Of a DNA stretch of 64,000 nt, positions 2,900-60,180 are shown piece after piece. The stretch is from Mobula hypostoma (lineage: Eukaryota). How positions within the stretch are numbered: position 1 is the first letter of the stretch; each line of letters opens with the position of its first letter. The position numbers and the translations under genes are program-made. The stretch lies in contig NC_086097.1 of NCBI RefSeq assembly GCF_963921235.1, forward strand, positions 101,062,001 through 101,126,000, given 5' to 3'. The notes under the pieces are model-generated. The model was given only the letters and a program-made list of their open reading frames with translations. It did not search any database and was not told the DNA's origin.

Positions 2900-4671
2900 A
2901 AGATCATAGTTGCCCATAGCTATCTAACTGGTAAATTCATACTGCTTTATAGTTTCAAATGTATGAAAGGACAGAGAAAAACATATCTTACATTCTGTTC
3001 ATACAGATCAATTATTCATTAATAGATGAGTACAAATAGAGAATTTTTTTAAATAGTTACTGTACTGGAATCTGATGCAAAAGAGTGCTAAAAATATCCA
3101 GCAGTTCAGCAGCACTGTGGTAAGAAAACCAAGTTAAATAGATAACCTTACATCAGAACTGGGTGATTTTGATACAAGTGGAGAAAGCTAGTCATCTGAA
3201 ATGGTTCCACTTGATGGCTCCACAGTAGTGCTGATGCTGCAAAACTCCAGCAGCTTGGGTTCATTCCTATGCGTGTGTTCTCTCTGTATGTGTCTCTCAC
3301 TCTCCTCACCCTCGCTGGTCCACTCCTAACACTGGCTTCCCCGCTTATCCTTTTTGTACATTTAAACAAGCATCACCAACCGGTGAGAAATCTCATCGCT
3401 GTGGCCTGCTCCTGATGCTGAATGGGCGGCCGGAATATACACTCAGGTTTAGGATAAAGCGGCAATAGATTTGGAGGGGATCGAAGGAAGAATTTTTTTC
3501 CCCAACTCAGAGGGAGGCTAAACTCTATATTACTTTGCCAGAGTGGGTGATGAATGCAGAGATATTCACAACATTTAAGTAGTATGTAGATCTGCCAAGG
3601 TATGGGAGGTACAAATCAAATGTTGGTAATGTAGATGGATATCCAATGGTCAACGTAAACATGGTGAACAGAAGGGCCCATTTCTGCACTGTATTACCCT
3701 GTCAATCAATGCAATAAATGCAACATGCATGCTCATGGGTGCTGGATAGCTGGATGTATTGTCCAATGCATATCATGTACCAATATTCTCTCACCTTTTT
3801 ATCACTATACCTCTACAGAGAGAGAGCAATACTCCAATCACTTCCAAGTAGGCATAAGGAATATTGGAGTACTACATAATGAACTATACACTGCAAAGCA
3901 CATGTTGGATAGTCTGTATAGTCTGGGCTATTTGCTAGAAAGAAAGTGTTGTCCTAACAAGAGCAACAGGGTTGGTCTGTATTCCATGGAGATTAGAAGA
4001 GAGGTGTCTTTATTGAGATACAAAAGATCCTACTGAGCTTGAGGATAGAAGTAGAGATAATTTCCAAAAAGGAAAGGTCTTGAACAGGGGACATAATTAC
4101 AAGTGGCAGATCATTTTAAAATGAGATACAGAGAAATTTCTTCTGTCAGAGGGCAGTGAATTTCTAGTTCTAAGGGTGCTGGAGGCCAGATCATTTAAAT
4201 ATACAGTACATCATTAAATATTTGAAAGACTGAATTAAAAGCTATAGGGAACTGACATAAGAGGCTGAGGACAGCTCATTCAGCCATGACCACAATGAAT
4301 AGTGGGGCCTGGTGGACTACTCTGCTCCCATTTTCTTGTGCTTGTGTCAAACTATGAATACCCACAATCAGCTTGAGTACTGCATACAACTCACCACATG
4401 ACAGAATGATTGAACTGGAGAGAGTGTTGAAACCCAAAGTTGTTGTTGGAATTGGAAAACTATTTAGGAAGAGAGATTAGTTTGGAATAAAGGAAGCTGA
4501 GGGAAGAATTAGATGAAATATATATAATGATAAGGAGCCTAGATAAAGTAAGTATGAAAGATCTATTTCCAATAGAAGTGTGTCAGAAACAAGGAAAAGA
4601 TATTGTAAGCAACACACATAAAAGTTGCTGGTGAACGCAGCGGGCCAGGCAGCATCTCTAGGAAGAGGTGC

Positions 4672-4707
4672 AGTCGACGTTTCAGGCCGAGACCCTTCGT
4701 CAGGACT
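4672..4707 (-). ncRNA. Minimal type I hammerhead ribozyme motif (PLE 3' region)
   Basis: Minus strand: AGTC-CTGACGA-AGGGTCTCGGCCT-GAAAC-GTC-GACT, with intact core, AGUC/GACU stem I and palindromic ACGU in place of helix III. Confidence 0.85.
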
Positions 4708-5829
4708 AACTGAAGGAAGAGTGAGTAAGGGATTTGAAAGTTGGAGGGAGAGGGGGAGATCCAAAATGATAGGAGAAGACAGGAGGGGGAGGGATGGAGC
4801 CAAGAGCTGGACAGGTGATTGGCAAAAGGGATACGAGAGGATCATGGGACAGGAGGTCCGGGAAGAAAGACAAGGGGCGGGGGACCCAGAGGATGGGCAA
4901 GAGGTATATTCAGAGGGATAGAGGGAGAAAAAGGAGAGTGAGAGAAAGAATGTGTGTATAAAAATAATTAACAGATGGGGTACGAGGGGGAGGTGGGGCA
5001 TTAGCGGAAGTTAGAGAAGTCGATGTTCATGCCATCAGGTTGGAGGCTACCCAGACGGAATATAAGGTGTTGTTCCTCCAACCTGAGTGTGGCTTCATCT
5101 TTACAGTAGAGGAGGCCGTGGATAGACATGTCAGAATGGGAATGGGATGTGGAATTAAAATGTGTGGCCACTGGGAGATCCTGCTTTCTCTGGCGGACAG
5201 AGCGTAGGTGTTCAGCAAAGCGGTCTCCCAGTCTGCGTCGGGTCTCGCCAATATATAAAAGGCCACATCGGGAGCACCGGACGCAGTATATCACCCCAGC
5301 CGACTCACTGGTGAAGTGTTGCCTCACCTGGAAGGACTGTTTGGGGCCCTGAATGGTGGTAAGGGAGGAAGTGTAAGGGCATGTGTAGCACTTGTTCCGT
5401 TTACACGGATAAGTGCCAGGAGGAAGATCGGTGGGGAGGGATTGGGGGGGGACGAATGGACAAGGGAGTCGCGTAGGGAATGATCCCTGCGGAAAGCAGA
5501 GAGGGGGTGGAGGGAAAGATGTGCTTAGTGGTGGGATCCCGTTGGAGGTGGCTGAAGTTACGGAGAATAATATGTTGGACCCGGAGGCTGGTGGGGTGGT
5601 AGGTGAGGACCGGGGAACCCTATTCCTAGTGGGGTGGCGGGAGGATGGAGTGAGAGCAGATGTACGTGAAATGGGGGAGATGCGTTTAAGAGCAGAGTTG
5701 ATAGTGGAGGAAGGGAAGCCCCTTTCTTTAAAAAAGGAAGACGTCTCCCTCGTCCTAGAATGAAAAGCCTCATCCTGAGAGCAGATGCGGCGGAGACGGA
5801 GGAATTGCGAGAAGGGGATGGCGTTTTTG

Positions 5830-5973
5830 GATGGAATATAAGGTGTTGTTCCTCCAACCTGAGTGTGGCTTCATCTTTACAGTAGAGGAGGACGGAATAT
5901 AAGGTGTTGTTCCTCCAACCTGAGTGTGGCTTCATCTTTACAGTAGAGGAGAGACGGAATATAAGGTGTTGTT
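5830..5973 (-). repeat. Tandem reiteration of an internal 61-bp PLE segment
   Basis: 5830-5890 and 5891-5951 copy 5054-5114 (one C>T in the first copy); 5952-5973 copies 5053-5074. Confidence 0.95.
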
Positions 5974-6442: not shown

Positions 6443-7116
6443 TAGGGTTAAACTCACCTCAACATGTCTTTTACAGTTAGGGTTGCCAACTTTCTCACTC
6501 CTAAATAAGGGACAAAAGTAGCAGTCAAATCCTGACGAAGCGTCCCGGCCCGAAACGTCGACTGTACCTCTTCCTATCGATGCTGCCTAGCCTGCTGCGT
6601 TCACCAGCAGTTTTTGTGTGTGTTGACGGGACACTTGTGTTCACCCCGAGAAAGACTACCACGACCATGAAGCCTTGCGCGGGCACCTGTGTGCGCATGC
6701 GTGACGTTCGCATATGTGACGTGCACATGCGCGTATGTGCCAATTTTTTTCCCATTAATTGATTTTGGCTTAATCTTCCCGACTACACTGTAAATACATT
6801 ATTTCTACTTTATATAGGCTGTGTATTTATCATATTATTAATGCGTTTACTATATGTTAGAATTATTTTAGGTTTTATGTGTTATTTGGTATGATTTGGT
6901 AGGTTATTTTTTGGGTCTGGGAATGCTCAAAAATTTTTCCCATATAAATTAATGGTAATTACTTGTTCGTTTTACGCCATTTTGGCACGGAAGGTTTCAT
7001 AGGAATGCTCTACCTTAGCAGGGGAAATACCGGACAAGGGTGGTCCCGTATGGGACAAACCAAATTAGCCCAATATACGGGATGTCCCAGCAAATACAGA
7101 ACAGTTGGCAGCCCTA
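6443..7116. mobile_element. Inner hAT-like non-autonomous element
   Basis: Ends TAGGGTT...GCCCTA with inner TIR pair TAGGGTTGCCAACT (from 6478) and AGTTGGCAGCCCTA (to 7116); 8-bp flanks TGTTCAAG (6435-6442) and TGTTCGAG (7117-7124). Confidence 0.7.
6528..6626 (+). mobile_element. Short PLE 3' fragment starting at a hammerhead motif (6528-6563)
   Basis: CTGACGA...GAAACGTCGACT followed by GATGCTGCCTAGCCTGCTGCGTTCACCAGC, homologous to 4610-4707 and 48050-48147. Confidence 0.85.
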
Positions 7117-24442: not shown

Positions 24443-25030
24443 GCAGATTGGGAGACCACTTCGCCAAGCATCTACGCTCTGTCCGCTAGAACAAGCAGGA
24501 TCTCCCAGCGGACACCCAGTTTAATTCCACTTCCCATTCCGATATGTCTATCCATGGCCTCCTCCACTGTCGGGACAAGACCACACTTAGGTTGGATGAA
24601 CAACCATTTATATTCCATTTGGGTAGCCTCCAACCTGATGACACAAACATCAATTTCTCAAACTTACAGTAATGCCTCCACTTCTCCCCCTCACCTTCAC
24701 CATTTTCCATCCCCTTAACCCTCTCTCATGTTAACTCCTGCCCGCCCATCACCTCCCTCTGGTGCTCCTCCCCCCATCCCCTTTCTTCCACGGCCTTCTG
24801 TCTCTTTCATTAATCAACTTCCTAGCTCTTTGCTTTATCCCTCCCCCTCCAAGTTTTACCTATCGCCTGGTGTTTCTCTCTCTCATCCCCCCACCTTTCA
24901 AATCTACTGCTCAGCTTCTTTTTCTCCAGTCCTGCCGAAGGGCTTTGGTCCAAAACATTGACTGGACTTTTTTTTTCCCATAGATGCTGCCTGGCCTGCT
25001 GAGTTCCTCCGGCATTTTGTGTGTGTTGAA
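24443..25030 (+). mobile_element. PLE 3' fragment with decayed hammerhead (24928-24963)
   Basis: Homologous to the end of the 26183-28354 ORF; core mutated to CTGCCGA and AAAAC. Confidence 0.85.
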
Positions 25031-28602: not shown

Positions 28603-28638
28603 AATCCTGATGAAGGGTTCCGGCCCGAAACGTCGACC
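28603..28638 (+). ncRNA. Minimal hammerhead motif, weakened stem I
   Basis: AATC-CTGATGA-AGGGTTCCGGCCC-GAAAC-GTC-GACC. Confidence 0.75.
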
Positions 28639-29345
28639 GATCTTTTCCACGGATGCTGCCCGACCTGCTGAGTTCCTCCAGCGTGTTGTGAGTGTTGCTT
28701 TGACCCCAGCATCTGCAGATTATTTTGTCTTTACAATGTTCCTCTAGTATGATATCACAGAAACACAAGACAGACCAAGACTAAAAAAACTGACAAAAAC
28801 CACATAATTATAACATATAGTTACAACAGTGCAAAGCAATACCGTAATTTGATAAAGACAGACCATGGGCATGGTAAAAAAAAAGTCTCAAAGTCTCGAA
28901 AGTCCCATCATCTCATGCAGACAGTAGAAGGAAGAAAACTCTCCCTGCCATGAACCTCCAGCGCCGCAAACTTGTCGATGCAGCACCCTGGAAGCATCTG
29001 ACCACAGCCGACTCTTGAGTCAGTCTGAAAACTTCGAGCCTCCGACCAGCCCTCCAACACCGAGCACCGAGCACCATCTCTGCCGAGTGCTTTGACCCCG
29101 GCCCCGGCCACCAAGCCACAGGCAAAGCCGAGGATTCGGGGCCTTCCCCTCCGGAGATTCTTGATCGCACAGTAGCAGCGGCAGCGAAGCGGGCATTTCA
29201 GAAGTTTCTCCAGATGTTCCTCCGTGCTTCTCACGTCTGTCTCCATCAAATCAGGATTGTGCACGGCATCCTACTTGACAAATACAGATATCATTCACCG
29301 GAGAGGCCACCCATGCTGCATCGTGCTGCCATCTTCTCCTCCTCC

Positions 29346-44900: not shown

Positions 44901-47652
44901 CTCCTTAGAGCAAGGGGTTTAGATGGGATGGAGTTTGTTAGGTGTGTTCACAAAGGTTTCCCTGACGCAATATGTAGAAAAGCAAACTAAAGGAGAGGCT
45001 GTACTTGATCTGGTATTGGGAAATGAACCTGTTCAGGTGTCAGATCTCACGGTGGGAGAGCATTTTGGAGGTAGTGATCACAACCATCTCCTTTACCATA
45101 GTGCTGGAGAGGGACAGGAGCAGATAACCTGGAAAAAACGCAATTGGGGTAGGGGAAAATATGATGCTATTAGGGAGAAATTTGGGAGCAAATGTTCTCA
45201 AGGAAATTCAAGGCAGAAATGTGGCAAATGTTCAGGGAACATTTGCACGGTGTTCTGCAAAGGTATGTTCAATTGAGGTAGGGAAAGAATGGTAGAGTAA
45301 AAGAATCAAGGTGTACAAAGGATGGAGAAAATCTAGTTAAGAAGTAAAGAAAAGCTTACAAAAGGTTCAAGAAACTAGGTACTGTTAGAGCTCTAGAAAA
45401 TGACAAGATTGTCAGGAAGGAGTTTAAGAATGAAATTAGGAGAAGTAGAAGGGGCCATGAGAAGGCCTTGGCAAGCAGGAACAAGGAAAAGCCCAAGGCA
45501 TTCTACAAGAGGGTGAGCTGTGTGGGAATAGGACCAATCAGATGCAATAGCGGAAACCTGCATGGAGTCAGAGGAGGTAGTGGAGGTACTTAATGAATAC
45601 TTTGCTTCAGTATTCACCAGGGAAAAGGACCTTGGCAATTGCAGACTGAAACACTTGAGCATGTAGACAACATGAAAGAGGATGCACTGGAGCTTTAGAA
45701 AGCATTAAGTTAGATAGGTCGCCAGGTCCGGACAAGATATACCCAGGACTACTATGGGAAGTAAGAGAGGAGATTGCTGAGCCTCTGGTATCATCATGAG
45801 GGATGGGAGAAGTACCGGAGGATTGGAGGGTAGCAAATATTGTTCTCTCGTTCAAGAAAGGGAGCACAGATAACCCAGGAAATTATAGACCAGTGAGTCT
45901 TACTTCAGTGGTGGGCAGGTTGTTGGAGAAGATTTTGAGAGGCAGGATTTATGAGCATTTGGAGAGACAATCTGATTAGGGATAGTCAGCATGGCTTTGT
46001 CGAGGACAAGTCGTGCCTTATGAGCCTGATTGAATTCTTTGAGGATGTAGCAAAACACATTGATGAAGACAGAGCAGTAGATGTAGTGTATATGGATTTC
46101 AGTAAGGCATTTGATAAGGTTCCCCATGCCAGGCTCATTCAGAAAGTAAGGAGGCATGGGATCCAATGAGAACTTGTTTTATGGATCCAGAAATGACTTG
46201 CGCACAGAAGGAAAAAAGTGCTTGTAGATGGTTCGTTTTCTGCACGGAGGTCGGCAACCAGTGCAGTTCTGCTGGGATCTGTTCTGGGACCCTTCCTCTT
46301 CGTGATTTTTATAAATGACCTGGATGAAGAAGTAGAAGGGTGGGTTAGTAGTTTGCTGATGACAAAGATTGGGGATGTTGCGGATAGTCTGGAGAGTTGT
46401 CAGAAGTTATAGCGGGATATCGATAGAATGCAGAACTGGGCTGAGAAGTTAAACCCAGATAAGTGTGAAGTGGTTCATTTTGGTAGGTCGAATTTGAAGA
46501 CAGAATATAGTATTAATGGCAAGACTCTTGGCAGTGTGGTGGATCAGAGAGATCTTGGGGTCTGTGTCCATAGGACACTCAAACCTACTGTGCATGTTGA
46601 CATTATTGTTAAGAAAGCATATGGTGTGTTGGCCTTCACCAACCGTGGGATGGAGTTCAAGAGCTGTGGGGTAATGTTACAGCTATATAAGACCTTAGAT
46701 AGACCCCACTTGGGAGTATTGTGTTCAGTTCTGGTTACCGCACTACAGGAAGGATGTGGATACTATGAAGAGAGTGTAGAAGAGATTTACAAGGATGTTA
46801 CCTGGATTGGAGAGTGTGCCTTATGAGAATAGGTTGAGGGAATGTGGCCTTTTCTCCTTGGAGTGACGGACGTTGAGAGGTGACCTGATAGAGGTGTTTA
46901 AGATGAGAGGCATTGATTGTGTGGATAGCCAGAGGCTTTTTCCCAGAGCTGAAATGGCTAACATGAGGGGACATAGTTTTAAGGTGCTTGGAACTAAGTA
47001 CAGGGGGGATGTCAGAGGTAAGTTTTTCCACACAGAGAGTGGTGGGTGTGTGGAATGCACTGCCAGCAACAGTAGTAAAGGTCTTTTAAGAGACTCTTAG
47101 ATAGGTACATGGAGCTTAGAAAAATAGAGGGCTATGCGGTAGGGAATTCTAGGCAGTTTCTAGAGTAGGTTACATTGTCAGCACAACATTGTGGGCCAAA
47201 GGGCCTATAATGTGCTGTAAATTTCTATGTTCTATGTTCTAATGCGGGGGGGGGGGGGCAGGGAATCTCATTCAAGCCTACCAAATATTGAAAGGACTAG
47301 ATGGGGTGAATATGGAGAGGGTGTTTCCTATGATGGGGACATCCAGAACTAGAGGGTACAGCCTCAAAATTGAGGGGCGACCTTTTAGAACAGAAGTAAG
47401 GAGGTACTTTTTTTAGCCAGCGAGTAGTGAATCTGTGGAATGCTCTGCCACAGACTGCAGTGGAAGCCAAATCCACGGGTATATTTAAGGTGGAAGTTGA
47501 TCATTTTCTGATCGGTCAAGGCATCAAAGGATATGGTGAGAAGGCAGGTGTATGGGGTTGGGTGGGATCCGGGATCAGCTATGATGGAATGGCAGAGTAG
47601 ACTCGATGGGCTGAATGGCCTAATTCTGCACTTAGATCTTATGGTATTATGG
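41975..47652 (+). mobile_element. CR1 'C' (ORF1, APE, RT, 3' end) containing CR1 'D' at about 44626-47240
   Basis: C: ORFs 42049-44474, then 3' end 47240-47652. D: APE 44923-45276, RT 45951-46412, TTCTATG tail near 47240. Confidence 0.8.
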
Positions 47653-47995
47653 AAGCAATGGAGTGTAGAGAAGCCAGAAAAAAAAAATAAAGGAAGGAAT
47701 TAGGAAAGTCAGGAGGGGCCATGAAAAGTCCTTGGCAAGTAGGATTAAGGTGAATCCAAAGGCATTCTATACATACATCAAGAGTAAGTGGATAACTAGG
47801 GAGAGGGTAGGACTACTCAATGGGTAAAGGGGGGAACATTTGTTTGGATGCAGGGAATGTACATGAGGTACTTAATGGGTACTTTGCTTCAAGATTTATC
47901 AATGAAAAGGAAATGAACAACAAGTAGATCAGGTAACACACATCAAAGTTGCTGGTGAACACAGCAGGCCAGGCAGCATCTCTAGGAAGAGGTAC

Positions 47996-48031
47996 AGTCA
48001 ACGTTTCGGGCCGAGACCCTTCGTCAGGACT
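47996..48031 (-). ncRNA. Minimal hammerhead motif (GUU cleavage triplet)
   Basis: Minus strand: AGTC-CTGACGA-AGGGTCTCGGCCC-GAAAC-GTT-GACT. Confidence 0.82.
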
Positions 48032-48050
48032 AACTGAAGGAACAGCTAGT

Positions 48051-48086
48051 AGTCCTGACGAAGGGTCTCGGCCCGAAACGTCGACT
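48051..48086 (+). ncRNA. Minimal hammerhead motif (GUC triplet, fully intact)
   Basis: AGTC-CTGACGA-AGGGTCTCGGCCC-GAAAC-GTC-GACT. Confidence 0.88.
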
Positions 48087-50381
48087 GTACCTCTTCCTAG
48101 AGATGCTGCCTGGCCTGTTGCGTTCACCAGCAACTTTGATGTGTGTTGCGTGAATTTCCAGCATCTGCAGAATTCCTCGTGTTTGCGTGAATCAGTAGAT
48201 CAGAGCTGAGTATATAAATATGTTAGGGCATTTCGAGGTCAAGGAGGGGAAAGTGTTGGGCCTTCTAATGAGGGCCTGATGGGATTTATCTCATATTATT
48301 GAAGGAGGCAAGAGACAGGATTGCTGAGCCCTCGACCAGTATCTTTGTATCCTCTCTAGCCACAGGCAAGGTCCCAGAGGACTGGCAGGTGGCTATTGTT
48401 GTACCTCTATTTAAGTAGGGAACAAGGGAAAATCCTGGGAACAATAGACCAGTGAGTCTCACGTCAGTTGTAGGGAAATTGCTGGAGAAAATTCTGAGGG
48501 ATAAGATATATGAGCATTTAGAAACCCAGGACTAATTAGGGAGAGCCAGCACAGCTTTGTGTGTGGCAGGTCATGCCTTACCAAGTTGATTGAGTTTTTT
48601 GACAAGATGATGAGGTTAGGGCAGTGGTTGTTGTCTACATGGATTTGTGTAAGGTGTTTGATGAATTCCCTCATGGGAGGCGAATCCAGAAGATTAAGAT
48701 GCACGGAGTCCGTGGTAAATTGGCTGATTGGAATCAGTACCGACTTGCACACAGAAGGTAGAGGGTACTGGTTGAAGGGAGTTATTCGAGTTGGAGGTCT
48801 GCAATTAACGGAGTTCTGCAGGCATCTGTGCTGAGCCCTCTGCTGTTTGTGATGTATATAAATGACCTGGATGAAAATGTAAGTGGGTGGATTAGTAAAT
48901 TTGCAAATGATACCAAGATTGGTGGAGTTGTGGATAGTGAACAAGACCGGGAAAGATAACAGCACAATATAGATCAGTTACAGATTTGGGCAGAGAAATG
49001 GCAGATGGAGTTTAACCCAGATAAATGTGAAGTGTTGCATCTCGGTAGAGCAAGTGCAAGGAAACAGTACACTGTTAAGGGCAAGATCCTTAACAGTGTT
49101 GCTGAGCAGAGAAATCTTGGGATCAAAATTCATAGCCCCTTGAATATGGCTACACAGGTCAATAAGGTGGTTTAAAAGGCTTATGAAATGCTTGCTTTTA
49201 ATGCTCGACTAATGAGTTTAAAAGTCAGGAATTATGTTGCAACTTTATAAAACTGGTTAGGCCAAATCTGGAGTATTGCATACAGTTCTGGTTGCCTCAC
49301 TTTAGAAAGGATGTTGAGGCTTTGGAGAGGTTTACTAGGATGATGCCTGGTTTAGAGGGTATGTGCTATCATGAGAGGCTGGATAAACTTGGGCTGTTTT
49401 CTTTGGAGTGTAGGAGGCTGAGGGCAGATCTGATAGAAGTTTACAAGATTATGAGAGGCATAGAGAGTAGACGGGGAGCATCTGTTCCCCTGGGTTGAAG
49501 TATCTAATACCAGAGGGCATGAGTTTCTGGTGAGAAGCTTTAGGCTCCGGGGGGGGGAGGGGATGTGAGGGGTAAGATTTTTACTCAGAGAATAACGGAT
49601 GCCTGGAATGCCCTGCCTGCTGTGGTGGTAGAGACTAATACATTAGAACCTCTCAAGAGACGTTCGGATAGGCACGTGGATGTGAGGAAGATGGAGGGAT
49701 GTAGACATTGTGCAGGCCAGAGGGATTAGTGTTTGGGTGCTTAGCTGGTTCAGCACAACATTGTGCGCGGAATGGCCTGTTCCTGTGTTGTACTGTTTTA
49801 TGTCTTACTACGTCATGCTTAAAGCAAACAGTTTTTAAATAGCATCAGTTGTGTTTGGATTCAAAAGGCAGTGACTTTTGTCACTGATATTTGGTGAGAA
49901 ATTTGGTAAGATAATTCACAACTGCTTTACTCACTATGGTTTCAAGCATTCAGGCTTGGAAACAGAAGAAACAGCTGGGAGTGATATGAAATGATATTAC
50001 TACTTCATTAAGAACCACAAAGAACTTGAAGATGTCGACAATTATCTTCAAATACTACAATGAAAATGAAGATTTGGAGGATACAATCATTGATAGCATT
50101 GTATGTAGTCAGTCCATTATCTACACTAGATATCTCTGCTGAGTTTATTCATTTATAGTCAATCAAAGGAATATGCCAGCGTACAATGGATGAATTCCTC
50201 TGCTGATAACTATTAGAAACTAATAGATTTACATTACTGTACTTGTTCTGTATTTCATTTAAATACATAATTTGTTACTTAGTTAAATGGTAGTTTCTCT
50301 TTTTATACCTTTTTAACTATTTCCATGAAATTTCAGTTAATTGGGCAGCTGCTCAATTGGGCCAATTAACTGGATTCCACT

Positions 50382-52086
50382 TTTTTTTGCATCTGTGTTT
50401 ACTAAGGAAACTGGCATGAAGTCTATGGAATTAAGGGAAACAAGTAGTGAGATCATGGAAACTGTACAGATCGAAAAGGAGGAGGTCCTTGCTGTCTTGA
50501 GGAAAATTAAAGTGGATAAATCCCCGGGACCTGACAGGGTGTTCCCTCGGACCTTGAAGGAGACTAGTGTTGAAATTGCAGGGGCCCTGGCTGAAATATT
50601 TAAAATGTCGCTGTCTACAGGTGAGGTGCCGGAGGATTGGAGAGCGGCTCATGTTGTTCCGTTGTTTAAAAAAGGATCGAAAAGTAAACCGGGAAATTAT
50701 AGGCCAGTAAGTTTAACGTCGGTAGTAGGTAAGTTATTGGAGGGAGTACTAAGAGACAGAATCTATAAGCATTTGGATAGACTGGGACTTATTAGGGAGA
50801 GTCAACATGGCTTTGTGCATGGTAGGTCATGTTTGACCAATCTATTGGAGTTTTTCGAGGAGGTTACCAGGAAAGTGGATGAAGGGAAGGCAGTGGATAT
50901 TGTCTACATGGACTTCAGTAAGGCCTTTGACAAGGTCCCGCATGGGAGGTTAGTTAGGAAAATTCAGTCGCTAGGTATACATGGGGAGGTGGTAAATTGG
51001 ATTAGACATTGGCTCGATGGAAGAAGCCAGAGAGTGGTGGTAGAGAATTGCTTCTCTGAGTGGAGGCCTGTGACTAGTGGTGTGCCACAGGGATCAGTGC
51101 TGGGTCCATTGTTATTTGTCATCTATATCAATGATCTGAATGATAATGTGGTAAATTGGATCAGCAAGTTTGTTGATGATACAAAGATTGGAGGTGTAGT
51201 AGACAGTGAGGAAGGTTTTCAGAGCCTGCAGAGGGACTTGGACCAGCTGGAAAAATGGGCGAAAAAATGGCAGATGGAATTTAATACTGACAAGTGTGAG
51301 GTATTGCACGTTGGAAGGACAAACCAACGTAGAACATACAGGGTTAATGGTAAGGCACTGAGGAGTGCAGTGGAACAGAGGGATCTGGGAATACAGATAC
51401 AAAATTCCCTAAAAGTGGCGTCACAGGTAGATAGGGTCGTAAAGAGAGCTTTTGGTACATTGGCCTTTATTAATCAAAGTATTGAGTATAAGAGCTGGAA
51501 TGTTATGATGAGGTTGTATAAGGCATTGGTGAGGCCGAATCTGGAGTATTGTGTTCAGTTTTGGTCACCAAATTACAGGAAGGATATAAATAAGGTTGAA
51601 AGAGTGCAGAGAAGGTTTACAAGGATGTTGCCGGGACTTGAGAAACTCAGTTACAGAGAAAGGTTGAATGGGTTGGGACTTTATTCCCTGGAGCGTAGAA
51701 GAATGAGGGGAGATTTGATAGAGGTATATAAAATTATGATGGGTATAGATAGAGTGAATGCAAGCAGGCTTTTTCCACTGAGGCAAGGGGAGAAAAAAAA
51801 ACAGAGGACAAGGGTTTAGGGTGAGGGGGGAAAAGTTTAAAGGGAACATTGGGGGGGGCTTCTTCACACAGAAAGTGGTGGGAGTATGGAATGAGCTGCC
51901 AGACGAGGTGGTAAATGCGGGTTCTTTTTTAACATTTAAGAATAAATTGGACAGATACATGGATGGGAGATGTATGGAGGGATATGGTCCGTGTGCAGGT
52001 CAGTGGGACTAGGCAGAAAATGGTTCGGCACAGCCAAGAAGGGCCAAAAGGCCTGTTTCTGTGCTGTAGTTTCTATGGTTTCTATG
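50382..52086 (+). mobile_element. Young 5'-truncated CR1 with long RT frame
   Basis: ORF 50341-51819; catalytic motif reads KFVDD; frameshift in the A-run near 51793; TTTCTATG(G) tail. Confidence 0.95.
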
Positions 52087-59159: not shown

Positions 59160-60180
59160 GATGAGCGGTACAAGAATCCATTATTGGTATCCTCTCCGCA
59201 ACTTTTGCATTTTGCACACGTCTGCCCTTACTCCATCCTCCTGCCACCCCAACAGGGATAGGGTTCCTCTTGTCCTCACCTACCACCCCACCAGCCTCCA
59301 CATCCAGCCTATAATTTGTAAATTCCGCCATCTCCAATGGGATCCCACCACCAAGCACATTTTTCCCACCCACTCCCCTCTGCTTTCTACAGGGATCCTA
59401 TGTTCACTCATCCATCCACACTGATCTCTCTCCTGGTACTAACCCTTGAAAGCAGAACAAATGCCACACCTGCCCTTCACCTTCTTCCTCACTACCATTC
59501 AGGGCCCCAAAACGTCCTTGCAGGTGAGGTGACACCTGGTGCGGCCTGCTGTTTATCGGTGAGACCCGATGTAGATTGGGAGACCGTTTAACAAGCACCT
59601 TCGTTCTGTCCACCAGGAAAAGCAGGATCTTCCAGTGACCACCAATTTCAATTCTACTTCTCATTCCCATTCTGACATGCCAGTCCATGACCTCCTGTAC
59701 TGTCACGATGAAGTCACATGGGGGTTGGAGCAGTAGCACCTTATATTCTGCCTGGGTAGCCTTCAACCTGATGGCATTACCAGCAATTTCTCGAACTTCT
59801 GGTAATGCCCCCTCCCACCTTTCTCCTTCACCATACCCCATTCCCTTTTCCCCTCATCTCCTTACCTGCCTATCCCCTCCCGCTGGTGCTCCTCCCCCTT
59901 CCATGGTCTTCTACCGTCTATCAGATTTCCCCTTCTTTAGTCCTTTATCTCTTTTACCAGTCATCTTCCCTGCTCTTTACTTCACCCTTCCCCCTCTCCT
60001 GGTTTCTCCTATCACCCATCACCTTGTACTTCTTCCTCCCCTCCTCCACCTTCTTAATCTGACTTCTCATTTCTTTTTCCAGTCCTGATGACAGGTCTTG
60101 GCCTGAAACGTCAATTATTTACTCTTTTACATAGATGCTGCCTGGCCTGCTGAGTTCCTCCAGCATTTTGTGTGTGCTGC
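59160..60180 (+). mobile_element. Older PLE 3' half nested in a degenerate CR1
   Basis: NRDRVPLVLTYHPTSL motif shared with the 723-aa ORF; terminal GATGCTGCCTGGCCTGCTGAGTTCCTCCAGC. Confidence 0.88.
60081..60116 (+). ncRNA. Hammerhead motif with variant stem II
   Basis: AGTC-CTGATGA-C-AGGTCTTGGCCT-GAAAC-GTC-AATT. Confidence 0.7.

What the first reader, a model, noticed from the sequence alone, without database searches (positions are those of the whole stretch)
47923..48203. 261-bp TSD-flanked hairpin element with a hammerhead ribozyme on each strand
Seen: 98-bp inverted arms (3 mismatches), a 17-nt spacer, a perfect 10-bp TSD and no coding sequence. The arms carry intact hammerhead cores at 47996-48031 (minus) and 48051-48086 (plus). 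Known: PLE insertions often have inverted terminal segments and minimal hammerheads. Inference: a transcript from either strand contains a ribozyme plus its own antisense, so it could fold as a long dsRNA (Dicer/ADAR substrate, ribozyme off) or expose the ribozyme co-transcriptionally. It could be an endogenous siRNA source against this PLE family, or a MITE-like non-autonomous PLE.
Basis: partly seen in the sequence, partly recalled or inferred. Interest (0 to 1): 0.75.

Follow-up and report, generated by a model that had tools for sequence, protein, structure and literature searches.

The report
Double-primed Penelope retrotransposon hairpin stub
This 261-base hairpin is real but is one of thousands of stubs left by a very common Penelope-type jumping gene, not a self-copying ribozyme element; such stubs likely form when both cut DNA strands copy the same short RNA end, which makes them a record of how these elements probably insert.

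Summary
Observation confirmed: 98-bp arms with 3 mismatches, 17-nt spacer, 10-bp TSD, a minimal hammerhead on each strand (the minus one has GUU at the cut site). It is two head-to-head copies of the pLTR end of a high-copy Neptune/Nematis-type Penelope-like element (PLE); only the right arm carries the 39-nt tail. At least 1,341 similar hairpin junctions exist, but only 3 share this junction, so it is not a MITE copied as a unit. In 143 sampled insertions, 64 of 64 two-arm ones had exactly one tailed arm. The arms share subfamily variants and tend to be both short or both long. 5' ends pile up about 14-fold at the hammerhead's 5' edge, not at its cut site. Best reading: both target nicks prime cDNA from one RNA at two start sites, run off near the RNA start, and are end-joined. 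The ribozyme-switch idea is weak: the antisense arm is always transcribed first, and lone minimal hammerheads do not cleave. Small-RNA and editing claims were untestable here. The anatomy is a published PLE hallmark; this scan has already noted such hairpins in at least 40 genomes.

The parts
47923..47932 (+). left target-site duplication (10 bp)
   Evidence: empty paralogous site
47933..48051 (-). tail-less arm: pLTR end, family coordinates +97 to -21 (0 = window 48052); includes the 17-nt 'spacer', which is upstream parent sequence in antisense
47996..48031 (-). minimal type I hammerhead motif, GUU at the cut site
48050..48051 (.). 2-nt overlap (microhomology) at the arm-arm junction
   Evidence: arms end at -21 and -2 and overlap here
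48050..48149 (+). tailed arm, pLTR end, family coordinates -2 to +97
48051..48086 (+). minimal type I hammerhead motif; predicted cut after 48082
   Evidence: min-HHR description
48150..48188 (+). 39-nt PLE tail, the sequence between the 5' pLTR and the ORF in full-length copies
48189..48193 (+). 5 extra bases between tail and TSD
   Evidence: against the parent
48194..48203 (+). right target-site duplication (10 bp)
4609..5830 (-). longer 5'-truncated copy of the same family: GIY-YIG coding end, 3' UTR, hammerhead, no tail

Best explanation
The element is a dead-end, head-to-head insertion of two short copies of the end of a high-copy Penelope-like retrotransposon, likely made afresh at this site when both strands of one staggered cut primed reverse transcription. 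Shown: family identity, TSD, one tailed and one tail-less arm, independent junctions, shared variants between arms, and a pile-up of 5' ends at the hammerhead's 5' edge. Inferred: the GIY-YIG endonuclease makes two nicks about 13 nt apart; one 3' end primes at the tail end (about +133), the other about 35-40 nt upstream (about +97); both copy the same uncleaved RNA; short products run off at or near the RNA 5' end beside the hammerhead; host end-joining fuses the two cDNA ends by microhomology or small insertions. The hammerheads are passengers and are predicted to be silent in any read-through transcript.
For: Parent found: copies with RT, CX4CxxC linker and GIY-YIG in one frame (L284, L353), Pfam GIY-YIG and weak RVT_1 (below cut-off), arranged as inverted copy + pLTR + tail + ORF + pLTR. 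64 of 64 two-arm insertions have exactly one tail (43 of 43; 21 of 21). Tail-less ends also occur alone (21 of 54 single insertions), so that start site is independent. The tail-less arm reaches further upstream in 25 of 64, the tailed arm in 22, within 5 nt in 17. Arm mismatch 4.4% within vs 7.0% between elements; 51 of 51 pairs agree at position +37, 0.59 expected. Arms share fate: 11 both long, 49 both short, 4 mixed, Fisher p 8e-9. 5' ends at -12..+10: 1.95 per 100 nt vs 0.14 upstream, seen in both samples (2.0 and 1.84); 5 of 12 short TSD-confirmed single insertions begin exactly at 0. Junctions: 36 overlap, 22 insertion, 6 blunt of 64. In vitro the Anolis PLE protein cuts and extends both strands, starts at two sites bounding the tail, and uses uncleaved RNA (PMC11167929).
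Against: No transcription start was mapped, so run-off is inferred. In this very element one arm reaches -21 while the other stops at -2, which needs spread-out starts or trimming. A predicted -10.5 kcal/mol stem at about -16..+14 overlaps the pile-up and could cause stalling or annealing. Arm similarity could also come from conversion between arms or from one source locus dominating at a time; at +70 concordance was only 43 of 57 (0.70 expected). PMC11167929 saw no difference in start site between strands in vitro, so the strict one-tail rule is not explained by it. Full-length copy L108 has no tail at either outer end. Samples come from the first ~6.3 Mb of one contig, and BLAST ends are blurred by several nt at palindromic junctions. 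This copy's TSD (10) is shorter than the mode (13).
Confidence: 0.75

Rival explanations
1. Double priming is right, but the short products come from RT stalling at the stem around -16..+14 or at a bound protein, or from annealing of the two cDNA ends at this quasi-palindrome, not from the RNA 5' end.
For: Predicted stem overlaps the pile-up; shoulder of ends out to -50; several junctions use the quasi-palindrome.
Against: Single insertions with no partner arm also pile up there (12 of 46 at risk), five exactly at 0. Independent stalling would not give the both-short or both-long pattern.
Confidence: 0.3
2. A single cDNA folds back on itself, or an antisense RNA self-primes (the hypothesis in PMC3846280), and the second arm is copied from the first.
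For: Short palindromes and overlaps at many junctions; arms are more alike than random copies.
Against: Fold-back from the tailed arm cannot let the tail-less arm reach further upstream, yet it does in 25 of 64 and in this element; fold-back from the tail-less arm cannot make the tail.
Confidence: 0.1
3. A non-autonomous MITE-like PLE that is transcribed and re-inserted as a 260-bp hairpin unit.
For: Many near-full-length look-alikes at 89-96% with different TSDs.
Against: 3 exact copies of this junction; the same junction geometry recurs in another subfamily, 2 copies; 61 distinct end pairs of 64; lengths form a continuum up to full-length elements.
Confidence: 0.04
4. The hairpin has a role as an endogenous siRNA or ADAR substrate that restrains this PLE family, or as a ribozyme switch.
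For: A near-perfect 100-bp stem forms if transcribed; about 38% of sampled insertions (49 of 130) are short hairpins, so the class could supply dsRNA in bulk.
Against: No evidence that this locus is transcribed; it lies in a decayed LINE; three substitutions incl. the cut-site base suggest neutral decay; antisense arm precedes the ribozyme on both strands.
Confidence: 0.1
5. Assembly artefact.
For: No listed short-read contig spans the whole palindrome.
Against: TSD, arm mismatches and asymmetry; contigs bridge the right junction in run X1 (0 differences) and both outer junctions in run X5; the same architecture at over a thousand other sites.
Confidence: 0.01

Closest known systems
EN+ Penelope-like elements with an inverted 5'-truncated copy and one-sided 30-40-bp tail (PMC8557442 Fig. 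2 legend and text; Adineta vaga Pen2a, PMC3846280)
   Same: Head-to-head inverted pLTR, tail on one side only, TSD of similar size, heavy 5' truncation, hammerhead in the pLTR.
   Different: Here both arms are so short that no ORF remains, and about half of all sampled insertions are two-armed; the passages read call the tail optional and give no counts.
Poseidon of Anolis carolinensis (PAc), in vitro (PMC11167929)
   Same: Tail lies at the pLTR-ORF junction between two start sites; both strands cut and extended; uncleaved RNA used.
   Different: This family has the CX4CxxC linker (Neptune/Nematis type) and its hammerhead lies upstream of the first ATG; the text read does not link two-strand extension to inverted arms.
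Metazoan minimal hammerheads of PLEs (PMC4209133)
   Same: Short helix I, extra base before stem II, palindromic vestigial helix III; opposite-strand pairs 100-700 bp apart were noted in Schistosoma.
   Different: Here the pair is about 20 bp apart inside one TSD; opposite orientation cannot form the tandem dimer.
L1 twin priming
   Same: Both target nicks prime cDNA on one RNA; 5' inversion joined by microhomology.
   Different: L1 arms copy different, non-overlapping parts of the RNA; here both arms copy the same stretch, giving a palindrome.

Membership tests
EN+ Penelope-like element (parent family) | RT with C-terminal GIY-YIG endonuclease in one ORF | tested here: met
   Pfam GIY-YIG at cut-off, RVT_1 E 3e-5 below cut-off; RT motif and EN in one frame in L284, L353 and others. 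L106-L108 935-aa frames shift before EN.
EN+ Penelope-like element (parent family) | pLTRs, partial tandems, inverted 5'-truncated copy | tested here: met
   (L106, L107, L108)
EN+ Penelope-like element (parent family) | 30-40-bp tail at one end | tested here: met
   39 nt here; 64 of 64 two-arm insertions
EN+ Penelope-like element (parent family) | minimal hammerhead in the pLTR | tested here: met
   motif; cleavage activity not tested
Neptune/Nematis type | CX2-5CxxC motif in the RT-EN linker | tested here: met
   CKRNKCYTC; definition
Neptune clade proper | RT phylogeny | not tested
   no reference PLE set was fetched; no tree built
MITE-like non-autonomous element | many copies of one fixed unit (same ends and junction) | tested here: not met
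Endogenous hairpin-siRNA locus | transcription through both arms and 21-23-nt reads or editing | not testable with these tools
   only assembled contigs available
Retrozyme | tandem same-strand hammerheads bounding a circle-forming repeat (definition recalled) | tested here: not met
   one hammerhead per strand, opposite orientation

The most novel reading that the evidence does not exclude
The thousands of hairpins are in vivo 'strong-stop' products that spell out the PLE insertion mechanism: a dimeric protein primes both nicks on one RNA, one strictly at the tail end and one strictly 35-40 nt upstream, and products started on the RNA's 5' leader run off at a transcription start at the hammerhead's edge. 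The same strong-stop DNA could jump to the 3' pLTR to build partial tandems, and an upstream stem would keep the ribozyme off in read-through RNA but not in RNA started at its edge.
Probability: 0.4. Interest if true: 0.65.

Novelty: new member of a known kind. Interest (0 to 1): 0.38.

Why it matters
As a locus it is ordinary. As a class it bears on an open question: PMC8557442 names the formation of tandem and inverted PLE structures as still unexplained. The strict one-tail rule, the shared fate of the arms and the pile-up of ends give concrete predictions for the existing in vitro PLE system. Several thousand near-perfect 100-bp hairpins may also be a bulk source of dsRNA, and they can be mis-annotated as MITEs or miRNA precursors.

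Tried and rejected
Rfam: nothing at gathering in the whole window; at E<=10 only sub-threshold hairpin miRNA models, best MIR6136 58 bits vs 99, a ginseng miRNA by paper titles (listing only); treated as generic hairpin similarity. Ribozyme cut site as an end point: 3 of 35 ends between +11 and +60 fall at +30..+32, p 0.35; no peak here, though the sample is small. Spliced copies (the pyrimidine tract plus AG before the hammerhead looks like a 3' splice site): 0 of 251 hammerhead matches in fetched DNA, duplicates included, showed a skip from upstream family sequence. First sign of a pile-up in the random 984 kb was partly false: older families break alignment at -1 because their UTR differs, so only motif-anchored young copies were counted. 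Expression: no RNA holder listed; the runs guessed as RNA are contigs and cannot show start, strand or level. Orthologous empty site: pieces in runs X9 and X10 stop at the left flank but cannot be told from LINE paralogs. The protein search used a partly off-frame query and so favoured frameshifted copies; no conclusion drawn from those frameshifts. An older related family was counted but not sampled, so the rules were not tested on it. Literature: five searches aimed at this point found no paper on PLE hairpins in cartilaginous fish or on double priming in PLEs; subscription journals are mostly outside the library and supplements were not opened.

Full report
Observation. Inverted arms 47935-48032 and 48050-48147 have 3 mismatches, the spacer is 17 nt and an exact 10-bp repeat flanks the insert. 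The RNA folds at -211 kcal/mol, z -27. A paralogous LINE copy has the target once and no insert, so the repeat is a true TSD; the host sequence is a decayed LINE on the + strand (the name CR1 is recalled from its motifs). Each strand carries a minimal type I hammerhead motif matching the description in PMC4209133 (parts 1-2 of 4 read). The minus copy has GUU at the cut site. Rfam does not detect either.

What it is. The genome is 3.48 Gb. The same sequence lies at window 4609-5830 behind a GIY-YIG frame. Full-length copies show an inverted truncated copy, a 5' pLTR with hammerhead and tail, the ORF and a 3' pLTR; RT, a CX4CxxC linker and EN occur in one frame in L284 and L353, which is the Neptune/Nematis type as defined in PMC8557442 (passages). 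The 39 nt found only on the right arm is the pLTR-ORF junction sequence, the PLE tail. With 0 at window 48052, the left arm spans +97 to -21 in antisense and the right arm -2 to about +136; they overlap by 2 nt. The family is very large: 94,687 exact matches to a 14-mer of the hammerhead, older families included, and 45,164 to a 26-mer of the young family.

Not a unit that copies itself. An exact pattern for back-to-back hammerheads with 0-30 nt between gives 1,341 sites, control 0, and the listed spacers vary widely. This junction occurs 3 times and the same geometry twice in another subfamily.

Sampling. I took the first 100 of 45,164 matches (92 insertions: 43 two-arm, 37 single, 8 other, 4 cut by the locus edge) and the first 30 each of 14,087 and 14,611 matches of two variants (9 duplicates dropped, 51 insertions: 21 two-arm, 17 single, 4 other, 9 edge). 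The anchors lie at +73..+98 and do not select for the 5' structure, but all come from the first ~6.3 Mb of contig C1. A random 984 kb from ten contigs plus the window showed the same forms. TSDs were found in 90 of 130 non-edge insertions, mode 13, mostly 13-15 with one mismatch allowed.

Rules. All 64 two-arm insertions have exactly one tailed arm; tailed ends cluster at +132..+134 and tail-less ends at +95..+99 with a wider spread. There are 61 distinct end pairs; junctions are 36 overlaps, 22 insertions and 6 blunt. The tail-less arm reaches further upstream in 25, the tailed arm in 22, and 17 are within 5 nt, which excludes simple fold-back from either arm, the self-priming idea of PMC3846280 (passages) in its simplest form. 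Arms of one insertion differ by 4.4% (57 pairs) against 7.0% between insertions and agree at diagnostic sites, 51 of 51 at +37, though not above chance at +70. They are both long in 11, both short in 49, mixed in 4 (p 8e-9), and 4 of the 11 long pairs end within 25 nt of each other. 5' ends fall at -12..+10 at 1.95 per 100 nt against 0.14 further upstream, in both samples. Five of 12 short TSD-confirmed single insertions start exactly at 0. There is no peak at the ribozyme cut site (3 of 35). One full-length copy, L108, has no tail at either outer end.

Mechanism. PMC11167929 (parts 1-2 of 4 read) shows that a PLE protein cuts and extends both strands, starts at two internal sites bounding the tail, uses uncleaved RNA and is predicted to be a dimer. 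The simplest reading of the rules above is double priming on one RNA, one nick per start site, followed by end-joining. The pile-up is best read as run-off at an RNA start beside the hammerhead, because it also appears in single insertions and because arms share fate. This step is inferred (about 55%); a predicted stem at -16..+14 is the main rival, and this element's own arms (-21 and -2) need spread-out starts or trimming.

On either strand the antisense arm is transcribed before the hammerhead, and freeing it costs about 67 kcal/mol. A single min-HHR showed no cleavage in vitro and the Anolis one needed protein. A ribozyme switch is therefore unlikely. dsRNA could form if the site is transcribed; no RNA evidence could be obtained.

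Known and new. An inverted truncated copy with a one-sided tail is a published PLE hallmark, and opposite-strand min-HHR pairs were noted in 2014. My searches found no paper stating the one-tail rule, the shared fate of arms or the pile-up; supplements were not opened. This scan has reached similar readings on other DNA (485 notes in at least 40 genomes); they are unchecked and not counted as support, and their cut-site peak was not seen here. Verdict: real, a new member of a known kind, ordinary as a locus, moderately useful as a mechanistic record. Interest 0.38.

Noticed in passing
window 4609-5951: Tail-less 1.2-kb copy of the same PLE family on the minus strand, with two extra ~60-bp repeats of its EN-coding part at the 5' junction (5830-5951).
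   Followed up: partly
window 6530-6625, 24813-25028, 28605-28719, 59961-60180: Four more hammerhead-bearing PLE ends: one of the young family starting at +1 and three of older families at 69-80% identity.
   Followed up: partly
window 48146-48155 and 48183-48192: The same 10-mer stands at both start sites of this copy; the 5 extra bases after the tail may be a short false start at one site followed by a jump to the other.
   Followed up: no
window 48030-48052 and equivalent in all families: A pyrimidine tract ending in AG directly precedes the hammerhead in young and old families alike; it fits a 3' splice site (as reported for D. virilis Penelope) or an initiator. No spliced genomic copy was found.
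   Followed up: partly
L108:6583-6612 (minus strand): A predicted stem at about -16..+14 pairs the hammerhead's CUGA core with upstream sequence, so read-through RNA would hold the ribozyme off while RNA starting at its edge would not.
   Followed up: partly
L322:1250-1528 and L336:1496-2036: Copies that carry the first ~150 nt of the ORF joined to pLTR ends, in tandem; possible alternative start sites further into the ORF.
   Followed up: no
window 45700-51950: At least three decayed LINE RT fragments in the same orientation; the hairpin sits inside one of them. Target preference was not tested.
   Followed up: partly
L110:8779-9999: A reading frame that looks like an MHC class I exon (recalled resemblance) about 2 kb from a long PLE copy on a small contig.
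   Followed up: no
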